Source of the DNA: a virus
Direction: 5' to 3' (one strand)
IMG/VR virus record: IMGVR_UViG_3300046820_001062
Span: 32,001 to 96,000 of that record
DNA: 64,000 nt
The position numbers and the translations under genes are program-made. Under the pieces are notes generated by a model, which did not search any database, was not told where the DNA came from, and was given only the letters and a program-made list of their open reading frames with translations. This document shows, piece after piece, positions 56,332-57,686 of this stretch. Each line of letters starts with the position of its first letter. The stretch's first letter is position 1.

Positions 56332-56361
56332 TGTTTATATTTATTTGGTTATTAAAATTTG

Positions 56362-56434
56362 AGCCTTCTGTAGGAGTTGAACCCACAACCTGCTGAGTAC
56401 AAATCAGCTGCTCTACCAATTGAGCTAAGAAGGC
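56362..56434 (-). tRNA. tRNA-Thr(UGU)
   Basis: GCCTTCT TA GCTC AATTGGTA GAGC A GCTGA TT TGT AC TCAGC AGGTT GTGGG TTCAACT CCTAC AGAAGGC T. Confidence 0.92.
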
Positions 56435-56439
56435 TTTTG

Positions 56440-56513
56440 TGATCCCACTAGGATTTGAACCTAGAACCTACAGCTTAGAAGGCTGTTGCTCTATCCAATT
56501 GAGCTATGAGACC
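56440..56513 (-). tRNA. tRNA-Arg(UCU)
   Basis: GGTCTCA TA GCTC AATTGGATA GAGC A ACAGC CT TCT AA GCTGT AGGTT CTAGG TTCAAAT CCTAG TGGGATC A. Confidence 0.93.
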
Positions 56514-56522
56514 TCATTGTAA

Positions 56523-56824
56523 TTGATTTGTTGTTTGGTGGGACTACTGAATACCCACAAGTCCAACACACGCCCCTTTTCACCCATAGCCCAAGCAGAT
56601 GATCAGTCAGCTTGTTAATGACTAGCTGGATTGACTACCAGCACCTGCTGCGGAGATCAGATAGTATATGTCTTCACAGGACCTCAGAGCTTATTGGTTA
56701 CGCAACCTTTAAGATGAGTGGTTTTAACTCACGTGCTTGACAGCGTCCCCCTCAAAACTTTTCAGTATTGGAAAAACCACATTAACCCCTCTCAAGAGTT
56801 TTTTCTGTCACAAACACAAATCAA
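56523..56824 (-). ncRNA. Candidate ~300-nt structured ncRNA in the tRNA operon
   Basis: No ORF >=60 aa and GC-richer than flanks. Closed by a near-perfect inverted repeat ttgatttgttgtttggtg (56523-56540) / cacaaacacaaatcaa (56809-56824). Internal helices such as gtggtttt/aaaaccac and gtggg/cccac. Confidence 0.55.
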
Positions 56825-56836
56825 ATGTCAAAGAAC
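56825..56836 (-). promoter_or_regulatory. boxA-like antitermination element GTTCTTTGACAT
   Basis: Resembles the rrn boxA consensus (GYTCTTT[AG]A[AC]A). Lies immediately 5' of the ncRNA-tRNA array. Confidence 0.55.
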
Positions 56837-56873
56837 AATGCAAGTTAGTTTAAACTTGCAAGGTTTAGTTTTT

Positions 56874-57095
56874 TTACTCTGAAGTCTCAGCTCCACCTGG
56901 TCCGTCAGTTGCCTCCGCATTGTCAGGGCTTGTCATGTTAGCTATCATAATGGTAGCTTGAATACGCTTAGCTTCCTCTTGTACAGCCTTAGACTGTAGT
57001 TCAGCAAGCTCAGCACGTAGAGCAGCAAGTTCAATCTGGCTTTTATACCATGAAATCACTTCCTCTCTTGTTGGTTCTTTGGTTTCTTCTGCCAT
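56874..57095 (-). CDS. Small coiled-coil acidic protein (73 aa)
   Basis: First ORF after the Bacteroidota-type promoter, with an A-rich leader. Confidence 0.6.
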   Translation of the reverse strand: MAEETKEPTREEVISWYKSQIELAALRAELAELQSKAVQEEAKRIQATIMIANMTSPDNAEATDGPGGAETSE

Positions 57096-57136: not shown

Positions 57137-57168
57137 CAAATATACTCCAAAAGTTTAACTTTTACAAA
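57137..57168 (-). promoter_or_regulatory. Bacteroidota housekeeping-sigma promoter TTTG-N20-TATATTTG
   Basis: -33 TTTG at 57168-57165 and -7 TATATTTG at 57144-57137 with a 20-nt spacer, matching the established TTTG-N19-21-TAnnTTTG consensus. An overlapping plus-strand TATTTTTG at 57177-57184 may drive the divergent island. Confidence 0.65.
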
Positions 57169-57203
57169 TTTTTTATTATTTTTGTTGCATCCAAATTTAA
57201 ATC

Positions 57204-57686
57204 ATGTATATAACAAGAGAAAAAGAGTGGGAAGCTATTGAGAAAGTTTGTAGTATTCTGGATAAGAATCCTACATTAACTCCAAAAGATGCTGTTGTTG
57301 CTATGGTTAGTCCTGATTATAGCGCAACTGCAGCTATGCATGTTGCTCATCATCTTAGTAAAGATGGTGAAATGCTAAATATCATACCTGTTGAGGTTCC
57401 TTTTCCAGATGAAGATTCTGAACCCTACAGAAGAACCTTTGTCAAAAGAACTACTTATGAGTTTTATCCTTACAAAACAGTCATTCTAGTTGAGGCAGGT
57501 ATAATTACAGGAGGAAACTACAGATTTATGGTAGACCATCTTATAGATTTAGGATTTAACATTGTCACAGTTGCACTGTTTGAAAATAAAAACAGCCAGT
57601 TTAACTGTGACGTTGTTGGAGAATATTATGACAGCAACGTTCAAGAATTAGAATTTTATTATGAGCGTTACAACAAACATTGGTGA
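57204..57686 (+). CDS. Phosphoribosyltransferase-like protein (160 aa), degenerate PRPP-binding motif
   Basis: VILVEAGIITGGNY corresponds to the type I PRTase VLLVDDVIDTG.T loop, followed by VALF.N...F.CD.VG.YY. Confidence 0.6.
   Translation: MYITREKEWEAIEKVCSILDKNPTLTPKDAVVAMVSPDYSATAAMHVAHHLSKDGEMLNIIPVEVPFPDEDSEPYRRTFVKRTTYEFYPYKTVILVEAGIITGGNYRFMVDHLIDLGFNIVTVALFENKNSQFNCDVVGEYYDSNVQELEFYYERYNKHW

What the first reader, a model, noticed from the sequence alone, without database searches (positions are those of the whole stretch)
56523..56836. ~300-nt structured non-coding RNA candidate heading the tRNA array, preceded by a boxA-like element
Seen: an ORF-free, GC-richer segment closed by a long terminal inverted repeat (56523-56540 with 56809-56824), with several internal helices. 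It lies immediately downstream of GTTCTTTGACAT and immediately upstream of tRNA-Arg and tRNA-Thr on the same strand, under a host-type promoter at 57137-57168. I see no RNase P (GAGGAAAGUCC), tmRNA or tRNA hallmarks. Established: large phage ncRNAs (GOLLD, ROOL) sit next to tRNAs, and boxA drives Nus antitermination. Inference: an undescribed ncRNA class expressed from an rrn-like antiterminated operon.
Basis: partly seen in the sequence, partly recalled or inferred. Interest (0 to 1): 0.7.

Follow-up and report, generated by a model that had tools for sequence, protein, structure and literature searches.

The report
Enlarged manA-like RNA heading phage tRNAs
The flagged stretch is a real, intricately folded non-coding RNA of about 300 bases. 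It is an enlarged, uncatalogued cousin of the known manA RNA, which a 2026 preprint reports to build RNA-only cages in the test tube, and uncultured phages carry it among their tRNA and tmRNA genes; what it does is not known.

Summary
On the minus strand, 56824-56523 is a protein-free, GC-richer segment closed by a 14-bp helix. It lies behind GTTCTTTGACA and 9 nt ahead of tRNA-Arg and tRNA-Thr.

It is a genuine structured RNA. I collected 34 distinct homologues from two phage lineages that share no detectable capsid or terminase similarity. On these, 97% of pair cells are standard pairs (30-45% when partners are slid), and 36 pairs show changes on both sides (7-13 when slid).

It is not a wholly new class. 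Rfam manA (RF01745) matches it end to end at 30.9 bits, below the 55.2 cut-off. My own model's only foreign hit is a true cyanophage manA. It keeps manA's closing helix, junction nucleotides, P3, the GNRA-capped P6 and P9. It lacks P1, P5 and P7, and P8 has grown from about 35 to about 170 nt.

A loop in P8 covaries with the P9 loop, matching manA's L8-L9 kissing contact.

It always sits in tRNA/tmRNA arrays and has no expression platform. So I read it as a stand-alone stable RNA that probably self-assembles; that last step is inferred.

The boxA-like leader recurs, but antitermination is untested.

This scan already found enlarged manA-like RNAs on other phage DNA.

The parts
56523..56824 (-). 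Whole RNA, from the 5' end of the closing helix to its 3' end (302 nt). The conserved core UGUGAC...CCCACCA is 56812-56536.
   Evidence: Model R1 scores 307 bits here and finds one copy in the genome. There are 34 distinct homologues with cores of 272-278 nt.
56811..56824 (-). Closing helix, 5' strand (UUGAUUUGUGUUUG). It corresponds to manA P2.
   Evidence: It pairs with 56537-56523. Relatives carry GUAUUCUG/UAGAAU, CUGAUUUUCAU/AUGAAAAAUCAG, AAAAGAAUCUG/CAGAAUUUUUU and AAGAUCUUUG/CAAGAUUUU. The helix is short and weak where the RNA follows a tmRNA.
56523..56537 (-). Closing helix, 3' strand (CAAACA-A-CAAAUCAA).
56779..56808 (-). Junction GUGAC.GAAAAA, then the manA P3-type hairpin with invariant loop UUGAGAG, then UAAUGUG.
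   Evidence: It aligns to the manA consensus GUGaCUGAAUAA...UAAgGug. Seven of its 10 pairs show changes on both sides (helices 2 and 3).
56745..56777 (-). The manA P4+P6-type hairpin, capped by a GNRA tetraloop (GAAA).
   Evidence: Ten of 12 pairs covary (helix 4). The loop varies only within GNRA: GAAA, GCAA, GUAA.
56568..56736 (-). Enlarged P8 domain of about 170 nt: base stem GCACGU/GCGUGU, J-strand GAGUUAAAACCAC, four sub-hairpins, and the strand CUAUGGGUGAAAAGGGG.
   Evidence: The manA model leaves by a local end here: 169 nt stand in place of 22 model positions. Five of the 6 base-stem pairs covary (helix 5). Much of the domain is invariant across the 34 sequences.
56681..56718 (-). Three-tier hairpin inside P8 (CUCA/UGAG, CUUA/UAAG, GGUU/AACC).
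   Evidence: Separate MFE folds give the same shape in 34 of 34 homologues, with different sequences: CCA/UGG, CACU/AGUG, ACCG/CGGU, AGAUU/AAUCU.
56644..56680 (-). Helix X (CCUGU/GCAGG) with a 27-nt loop that holds CUGAUCUCCGCA.
   Evidence: All 5 pairs are standard in 34 of 34 sequences. Four compensated versions occur: CCUGY/GCAGG, CCCGU/GCGGG, ACGCY/GGCGU, ACACC/GGUGU.
56657..56660 (-). CUGA in the helix-X loop: one side of the covarying loop-loop (L8-L9-type) pairing.
   Evidence: CUGA/UCAG, ACGA/UCGU and AUGA/UCAU occur. Two pairs change on both sides in 12-13 sequences, and 99% of cells are paired.
56538..56558 (-). The manA P9-type 3' hairpin, GUGGG-UAUUCAGUAGU-CCCAC. UCAG (56550-56547) is the other side of the loop-loop pairing.
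   Evidence: It is near-identical to the manA consensus ugGGUAuacAguAAUCCca. Three of 5 stem pairs covary (helix 14).
56587..56642 (-). Two further P8 hairpins: GCUGG-UAGUCAAU-CCAGC, and UAGUC...GGCUA with an inner stem.
   Evidence: Nine of their 16 pairs show changes on both sides, for example UAGUC/GACUA to CUGUC/GACAG (helices 11-13).
56826..56836 (-). boxA-like leader GUUCUUUGACA.
   Evidence: [AT]TCTTT[AGT]A lies just 5' of the first RNA gene in most arrays, whether that gene is the tmRNA or this RNA. The 9-mer alone occurs 14 times in the genome against about 4.6 expected.
56839..56860 (-). Conserved 8-bp hairpin after the 73-aa ORF. It is terminator-like; in the rrn reading it would be boxB-like.
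   Evidence: Terminator scan. Compensatory change UGCAAGU/ACUUGCA to UGUAAGU/ACUUACA in L011.
56874..57095 (-). Upstream 73-aa ORF of unknown function.
   Evidence: Relatives are 58-89% identical. No PHROG match.
57137..57168 (-). TTTG-N20-TATATTTG, a match to the Bacteroidota-type promoter consensus.
   Evidence: It is kept in L010. Function is not shown.
56361..56513 (-). tRNA-Arg(UCU) and tRNA-Thr(UGU), directly downstream.

Best explanation
This is the gene of a stand-alone structured RNA of about 300 nt. It is an enlarged, uncatalogued relative of the manA motif RNA.

**Transcription and release.** It is transcribed on the minus strand together with tRNA-Arg and tRNA-Thr, behind a boxA-like leader. 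It is probably released when the flanking tRNA (or, in other phages, the tmRNA) is processed: RNase P cutting at the tRNA 5' end would leave a short 3' tail after the closing helix. This step is inferred.

**Fold (shown by covariation).** It has a manA-type core: closing helix, P3, GNRA-capped P4/P6 and P9. Helix P8 has been expanded into a domain of about 170 nt with four extra hairpins.

**Loop contacts.** One large P8 loop carries CUGAUCUC. Its CUGA covaries with UCAG in the P9 loop. Its UCUC is complementary to the invariant GAGA of the P3 loop.

**Likely mechanism (inferred).** These contacts correspond to the L8-L9' and L3-L8' kissing contacts that hold canonical manA RNAs together as RNA-only pentamers and cages in vitro. 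So the most likely mechanism is self-assembly into a homo-oligomeric RNA particle in the infected cell, not gene control in cis. Covariation cannot tell a contact within one molecule from a contact between molecules. The biological role of such a particle is unknown. The RNA is dispensable, because a near-identical phage has deleted it.
For: **Structure**
- On the 34-sequence MAFFT alignment, 97.4% of pair cells are standard pairs, against 30-45% with partners slid by 1-3 columns.
- 36 pairs show changes on both sides, against 7-13 when slid. No shuffle out of 500 reaches the observed values (the 28-sequence version is).
- Helix X and the three-tier hairpin hold in 34 of 34 sequences.

**Link to manA**
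- RF01745 aligns end to end at 30.9 bits, E 5e-6. It gives 31.7, 23.5 and 29.4 bits on relatives.
- Model R1's only foreign hit in 464 kb is the true manA of cyanophage S-CREM1: 10.7 bits, E 0.36, at the same coordinates.
- Shared features are GUGRC.GAAUAA...UAA.G, the P9 hairpin and its 11-nt loop, and a GNRA P6 loop.
- The kissing tetranucleotide sits at the same P9-loop position as manA's acAg, whose L8 partner reads CUgu. In S-CREM1 the pair is UGUC/GACA.

**Stand-alone RNA**
- In every locus it lies in a tRNA/tmRNA array with spacers of 8-42 nt. It can be before, between or after the other RNA genes.
- In the second lineage it follows the tmRNA by 8-12 nt and is followed by a plain intrinsic terminator whose sequence is not conserved.
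- S-CREM1 manA lies flush between tRNA-Leu and tRNA-Asn.

**Assembly**
- Ren et al. 2026 (bioRxiv 10.64898/2026.07.01.735769) report manA 60-mers, decamers and octamers. They are built from pentamers through L5-L7', L8-L9' and L3-L8' kissing loops and an L6-P6' GNRA contact.
- ROOL and GOLLD, also phage RNAs near tRNA islands, form RNA-only cages (PMC12286853).
Against: - The manA match is far below the gathering score, and most second-lineage members gave no manA hit at E 0.01. The reciprocal hit is weak.
- Three manA helices (P1, P5, P7) are missing, including both partners of the L5-L7' contact, so any assembly could not be built in the same way.
- The cage result is an unreviewed preprint on in-vitro transcripts of canonical manA RNAs. 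Nothing has been measured for this RNA.
- The loop-loop pairing may simply be an internal pseudoknot.
- The L3-UCUC pairing is invariant and so cannot be tested by covariation. UCUCC could instead pair with the invariant GGGG of GAAAAGGGG.
- No expression or end-mapping data exist.
- The hairpin upstream looks like a terminator, so how transcription reaches the RNA is unclear.
Confidence: 0.7

Rival explanations
1. It is a wholly new class of large phage ncRNA, unrelated to manA, expressed from an rrn-like antiterminated operon.
For: No Rfam family reaches its threshold. About 60% of the molecule, the P8 domain, has no counterpart in manA. Blastn finds nothing in 50,697 GenBank phage records. 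The boxA-like leader recurs.
Against: There is a full-length, reciprocal match to manA and to no other family. The helices come in the same order. The junction and P9-loop nucleotides are the same. The L8-L9 pairing sits at the same loop position. The tRNA-array context is the same as for a true manA.
Confidence: 0.15
2. It is a cis-acting riboswitch, as manA was first proposed to be. It would sense a ligand and control read-through into the downstream tRNAs and genes.
For: manA is listed as a riboswitch candidate (PMC2864571). There are many invariant unpaired nucleotides. In the second lineage an intrinsic terminator follows the closing helix directly. Sugar-metabolism genes lie downstream in one locus.
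Against: Here only 9 nt separate the helix from tRNA-Arg, with no terminator, anti-terminator or RBS. The terminators in the other lineage differ in sequence and do not overlap P1, so no conserved switching helix exists. The RNA may be first, in the middle or last in an array. Its immediate neighbours are RNA genes.
Confidence: 0.1
3. It is a tRNA- or tmRNA-like molecule closed by an acceptor stem with an encoded ACCA end. This is the other first-stage note on the same stretch.
For: The sequence reads CCCACCA after the 3' hairpin, and the RNA neighbours tRNAs and tmRNAs.
Against: The CA of ACCA is paired in the closing helix and lies 13 nt inside the RNA. The second lineage reads AUCA. The P9 loop has 11 nt and no conserved T-loop. 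ARAGORN and the Rfam tRNA and tmRNA models do not match. Phages that carry it also have a normal tmRNA next to it.
Confidence: 0.02
4. It is a chance inverted repeat or a decaying spacer with no function.
For: The MFE is no better than that of shuffled sequence. One close relative has deleted it.
Against: There are 36 covarying pairs. Identity is 70-75% between phages that share no detectable capsid or terminase similarity.
Confidence: 0.01

Closest known systems
manA RNA motif (Rfam RF01745; Weinberg et al. 2010, PMC2864571; cage structures in Ren et al. 2026, bioRxiv 10.64898/2026.07.01.735769)
   Same: - Same order of helices around a closing helix.
- Junction GUGRC.GAAUAA...UAA.G.
- GNRA-capped P6.
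- P9 hairpin with an 11-nt loop.
- Complementary L8 and L9 tetranucleotides at the same loop position.
- Found in phages, flush against tRNA genes.
   Different: - Scores 30.9 bits against a cut-off of 55.2.
- Lacks P1, P5 and P7, so it has no L5-L7 contact.
- P8 has about 170 nt with four extra hairpins, against about 35 nt in manA.
- The P3 loop is invariant.
- Found in freshwater and estuarine uncultured phages of two non-cyanophage-like lineages.
- Oligomerisation has not been tested.
ROOL and GOLLD RNAs (Rfam; Kretsch et al. 2025, PMC12286853)
   Same: They are large phage or prophage ncRNAs, often near tRNA islands. No protein partner is known. They form RNA-only homo-oligomeric cages.
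   Different: There is no sequence or secondary-structure similarity, and neither was reported in the Rfam scans. They are much larger, about 580-800 nt and more.
Phage T4 stable RNAs rnaC and rnaD (species 1 and 2) in the tRNA gene cluster
   Same: They are small stable RNAs of unknown function, co-transcribed with phage tRNAs and cut out by tRNA-processing enzymes. This rests on my own knowledge and was not checked here.
   Different: They are much shorter (about 120-140 nt), and no relationship was tested.
rrn/lambda boxA antitermination signal (E. coli rrn boxA UGCUCUUUAACAA, as printed in PMC2724277)
   Same: The leader reads GUUCUUUGACA here, GUUCUUUAACAUAU before the tmRNA in L080, and GUUCUUUGAAAAA in L117. 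It shares CUUU(A/G)A(C/A)A with boxA and sits at the head of stable-RNA operons.
   Different: Binding of NusB/NusE and read-through were not tested, and the host's own boxA is unknown. In this window the motif is also the T-tract of a terminator-like hairpin. In other loci it recurs just before an RBS.

Membership tests
manA RNA (RF01745) | Score at or above Rfam's gathering threshold (55.2 bits) | tested here: not met
   30.9 bits here. The whole-window scan at gathering thresholds shows only tRNAs. Relatives give 12-32 bits. A true manA scores 96.6.
manA RNA (RF01745) | Multi-helix junction closed by P2, with conserved junction strands GUGaCUGAAUAA and UAAgGug around P3 | tested here: met
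   The sequence is GUGACAGAAAAA...UAAUGUG here and GUGGCCGAAUAA...UAAGGCA in the second lineage. The closing helix and P3 covary.
manA RNA (RF01745) | 3' hairpin P9: UGugGGUA-uacAguAAU-CCcaCC | tested here: met
   The sequence is UGUGGGUAUUCAGUAGUCCCACC. This piece alone gives 16 bits. The stem covaries.
manA RNA (RF01745) | P4 domain holding three hairpins: P5 (GUGGUG loop), P6 (GNRA loop) and P7 (ACCA loop) | tested here: not met
   Only the GNRA-capped hairpin is present. The model positions for P5 and P7 are deleted.
manA RNA (RF01745) | P8 as a single interrupted hairpin of about 35 nt | tested here: not met
   It is replaced by a domain of about 170 nt with four hairpins.
manA RNA (RF01745) | Complementary L8 and L9 loops (the L8-L9' kissing contact of the cage structures) | tested here: met
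   CUGA/UCAG, ACGA/UCGU and AUGA/UCAU covary. The manA consensus has CUgu/acAg and S-CREM1 has UGUC/GACA. Whether the contact is between molecules is not testable here.
manA RNA (RF01745) | 5' hairpin P1 (uguuggGAcgccaaca) | tested here: not met
   It aligns poorly (CAUUU-G-AUUUG). That stretch is instead the outer part of the closing helix.
manA RNA (RF01745) | Homo-oligomeric RNA-only assembly | not testable with these tools
   It is reported for five canonical manA RNAs in a preprint. There are no data for this variant.
boxA antitermination site | boxA-like sequence in the leader of a stable-RNA operon, conserved in position | tested here: met
   Present before at least 10 of about 15 distinct array leaders, against a background of 0.017 per 30 nt.
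boxA antitermination site | NusB/NusE binding and terminator read-through | not testable with these tools
   The host is unknown and no host rrn leader could be fetched.
Riboswitch | An expression platform (alternative terminator/anti-terminator, or an RBS-sequestering helix) coupled to the closing helix | tested here: not met
   There are 9 nt from the helix to tRNA-Arg. Terminators in other loci are not conserved and do not overlap P1.
tRNA / tmRNA | Match to ARAGORN, RF00005 or RF00023; a free 3' ACCA | tested here: not met

The most novel reading that the evidence does not exclude
Phages of unrelated lineages exchange a family of enlarged manA RNAs whose 170-nt P8 domain gives the assembled particle a new geometry or a binding surface. 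Made in the same operons as tRNAs and tmRNA, the particle could capture or shield a component of the translation apparatus during infection. That would give RNA-only cages their first biological role.
Probability: 0.2. Interest if true: 0.85.

Novelty: new variant of a known kind. Interest (0 to 1): 0.6.

Why it matters
manA has been filed for 16 years as a riboswitch candidate. A 2026 preprint reports that it builds RNA-only cages in vitro, but nothing ties that to biology.

This variant adds three things:
- The manA core tolerates loss of three helices and a five-fold growth of P8.
- The L8-L9 loop pairing is the contact that evolution preserves.
- The RNA travels between unrelated phages as a stand-alone gene inside tRNA/tmRNA operons with a boxA-like leader.

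That points to a trans-acting particle. It also gives a natural, divergent test case for which contacts are needed for assembly.

The RNA is not essential, since a sister phage has deleted it. It should therefore be open to knockout tests once a host is found.

Tried and rejected
- **Thermodynamic test.** The single-sequence fold is uninformative (z -0.15).
- **Blastn against GenBank phages.** With the tRNAs included, only tRNA hits came back. With the RNA alone, from either lineage, there was no match.
- **Distant crAss-like relatives.** Those whose neighbouring protein is 39-53% identical have no manA-type hit and no R1 hit.
- **Three cyanophages chosen through tRNA hits.** None has manA.
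- **S-CREM1 manA by blastn.** It finds only itself.
- **16-mer scan.** It gave about 15 loci that neither blastn nor R1 matched, which I take as chance hits. The GTDB genome scan gave only two unrelated archaeal hits.
- **RNAalifold helices 7-9** (A3 columns 117-165). I rejected these. MAFFT misaligns the region, and L112 and L115 break helix 8. Separate folds and anchored counts support the three-tier hairpin and helix X instead.
- **Anti-terminator idea.** Pairing between GAUCUCC and the terminator stem fits some second-lineage loci such as L081, but the terminator sequence is not conserved.
- **GACAUUUG as a -7 promoter box.** I rejected this as the conserved feature, because relatives keep GUUCUUUGA but not CAUUUG.
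- **Conserved protein partner.** None was seen next to the RNA in the two lineages.
- **Literature.** Searches found nothing on a Bacteroidota boxA. The supplements of the 10,006-csRNA survey are not held, so I could not check whether this RNA is listed there.

Full report
**What is there**

All tRNA genes near the site are on the minus strand: tRNA-Arg 56513-56439 and tRNA-Thr 56434-56361. Read on that strand, the order of features is as follows:
- a TTTG-N20-TATATTTG promoter-like site (57168-57137);
- a 73-aa ORF (57095-56874);
- a conserved 8-bp hairpin with a T-rich tail (56860-56839);
- GUUCUUUGACA (56836-56826);
- a 302-nt segment (56824-56523) closed by a 14-bp helix with one bulged A;
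- tRNA-Arg, 9 nt further on.

The segment has 0.44-0.455 GC against 0.346 for the genome. Only chance ORFs overlap it. The minimum free energy is no better than that of shuffled sequence (z -0.15), so the case for structure rests on comparison of homologues.

**The genome**

The window lies in a 123,730-bp virus record that is 98% complete. It has 4 tRNAs, no tmRNA and one copy of this RNA. Its terminase, portal and capsid genes are phage-like. By capsid protein, the nearest isolates are very distant: Leptolyngbya phage Lbo-JY46 at 27% and crAss-like cr10_1 at 23%.

**Homologues**

Searches through a neighbouring protein and through conserved DNA words gave 34 distinct full-length copies, with cores of 272-278 nt.

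- *First lineage.* These are relatives of the window phage. Their copies are 77-99% identical to the window's, or about 70% for L115.
- *Second lineage.* Its copies are about 70-75% identical over most of the RNA. It includes a complete 173-kb genome with terminal repeats. The three second-lineage records searched (G024-G026) show no detectable similarity to the window phage's capsid protein or terminase.

Nothing matched in 50,697 GenBank phage records. A sister phage with a 98% identical capsid protein has cleanly deleted the core. It keeps only the closing-helix strands and the 3' hairpin. The RNA is therefore accessory.

**Structure**

On a MAFFT alignment of the 34 sequences, a 66-pair structure has 97.4% of cells as standard pairs, against 30-45% when partners are slid by 1-3 columns. 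It has 36 pairs with changes on both sides, against 7-13 when slid. No shuffle out of 500 reaches the observed values (the 28-sequence version is).

The closing helix exists in at least six different sequences. It is short where the RNA directly follows a tmRNA.

MAFFT misaligns one region, and RNAalifold's three small helices there are wrong. Separate folds show the same three-tier hairpin in 34 of 34 sequences. An anchored count shows helix X (CCUGU/GCAGG) with 5 of 5 pairs in 34 of 34 sequences, in four compensated versions.

Helix X closes a 27-nt loop that holds the invariant GAUCUCCGCA. The four bases CUGA in that loop covary with UCAG in the loop of the 3' hairpin: CUGA/UCAG, ACGA/UCGU and AUGA/UCAU.

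**Relation to manA**

Rfam at permissive thresholds gives one meaningful hit. manA (RF01745) aligns over all 192 model positions at 30.9 bits (cut-off 55.2, E 5e-6), with 169 nt inserted in one hairpin. Relatives give 12-32 bits.

My model R1 was built from 28 members. Searched over 464 kb, its only foreign hit is the true manA of cyanophage S-CREM1, at the right coordinates, though weakly (10.7 bits, E 0.36).

With the nine helices of the Rfam consensus numbered 5' to 3', the comparison is:
- *Kept:* P2 (the closing helix); the junction strands GUGRC.GAAUAA and UAA.G around P3; P4 with the GNRA-capped P6, whose loop varies only as GAAA, GCAA or GUAA; and P9 with its 11-nt loop.
- *Missing:* P1, P5 and P7.
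- *Enlarged:* P8, from about 35 to about 170 nt.

The covarying UCAG occupies the same P9-loop positions as manA's acAg. The L8 consensus in manA reads CUgu, and S-CREM1 has UGUC/GACA. The variant therefore fails the formal membership test, but it shares the core and one specific long-range contact.

**Context and likely mode of action**

In every locus the RNA lies in a tRNA/tmRNA array, in any position:
- ahead of tRNAs, as here;
- 8-12 nt behind a tmRNA and followed by a plain terminator, in most of the second lineage;
- just ahead of a tmRNA (L117);
- between tRNA-Arg and tRNA-Asn (L115).

No conserved terminator/anti-terminator pair or RBS follows it. A true manA lies flush between tRNA-Leu and tRNA-Asn in S-CREM1. 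This argues for a stable RNA that is cut out, not a riboswitch.

Notes from earlier follow-ups in this scan pointed me to a 2026 preprint, which I read. It reports that canonical manA RNAs form RNA-only 60-mers, decamers and octamers in vitro. These are built from pentamers held by L5-L7', L8-L9' and L3-L8' kissing loops and an L6-P6' GNRA contact. That helix numbering fits the Rfam consensus: L6 is the GNRA loop, and L5 GUGGUG complements L7 ACCA.

The covarying pair here is of the L8-L9 type. The adjacent UCUC is complementary to the invariant GAGA of L3, which would be the L3-L8 type, but that pairing is invariant and cannot be tested.

I therefore think self-assembly is the most likely mechanism. 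Three cautions apply. This is inference. Covariation cannot separate contacts within a molecule from contacts between molecules. The L5-L7 contact is absent. ROOL and GOLLD set a precedent for phage RNAs near tRNA islands that form cages.

**The boxA-like leader**

The 9-mer alone is not rare in this genome: 14 copies against about 4.6 expected. Its position, however, is conserved. [AT]TCTTT[AGT]A lies directly before the first RNA gene in at least 10 of about 15 distinct array leaders, against a background of 0.017 per 30 nt. It is found there whether a promoter, an ORF or a tRNA lies upstream.

Examples are GUUCUUUAACAUAU abutting the tmRNA (L080) and GUUCUUUGAAAAA (L117). In L061 and L105 a TACATTTG box lies 6 nt upstream, which would place the motif at the 5' end of the transcript.

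It resembles the E. coli rrn boxA, UGCUCUUUAACAA (sequence as printed in PMC2724277). Nus binding is untested. In this window the motif doubles as the tail of a terminator-like hairpin. In the second lineage a copy also precedes an RBS.

**Verdict**

This is a real RNA and a new variant of a known kind. The boxA-like leader is supported as a conserved signal, not as a shown antiterminator. This scan has already reported enlarged manA-like RNAs next to phage tmRNAs on other DNA. The present case adds the lineage without a tmRNA, a corrected model of the P8 domain, and the L8-L9 covariation.

Noticed in passing
L010:2905-2950 (virus record G003): A sister phage with a 98% identical capsid protein keeps only the closing-helix strands and a UGGGG...UCCCAC hairpin. 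The RNA core and both tRNAs are deleted.
   Followed up: partly
L010:3294-3369; L096:2291-2366; L117:6638-6713: ARAGORN calls a tRNA of undetermined identity with an odd anticodon loop ('ct' at position 34). In L096 and L117 it lies just upstream of the RNA. Rfam tRNA gives it only 39.7 bits.
   Followed up: no
L080:2103-2487; L117:7045-7420; L083:2215-2610; L105:1755-2143: Phage-encoded tmRNAs with unusually long tag peptides (for example AEELSSFTFEDAMSFVGADYAVAA) lie directly next to the RNA.
   Followed up: no
L054, L069, L081, L103, L111, L114, L122 (downstream of tRNA-Met): A second copy of the leader motif, GTTCTTTGACATAT, sits just before the AAGGAG ribosome-binding site of the next ORF. 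The motif is therefore not confined to RNA genes.
   Followed up: partly
L087:1-176 (same as L007): This copy carries a 20-nt insertion (GTGGATTGGGGTGTCCCTGG) in the tip of one P8 hairpin. That tip tolerates expansion.
   Followed up: no
L081:1190-9132: Two glycosyltransferases, an aminotransferase and a nucleotide-sugar epimerase lie 3-10 kb downstream of the RNA on the same strand. This recalls the sugar-metabolism genes linked to bacterial manA RNAs.
   Followed up: no
L100:2032-2068 (Synechococcus phage S-CREM1): An abiF RNA (52 bits) lies 30 nt behind the tRNA that follows manA. This cyanophage tRNA array therefore holds several unrelated small structured RNAs.
   Followed up: no
window 57137-57204: This is a divergent intergenic region. 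A TTTG-N20-TATATTTG site faces the minus-strand unit, and the plus-strand ORF at 57204 starts 36 nt away. The site is the only one of 11 pattern matches in the window that I placed in an intergenic region.
   Followed up: partly
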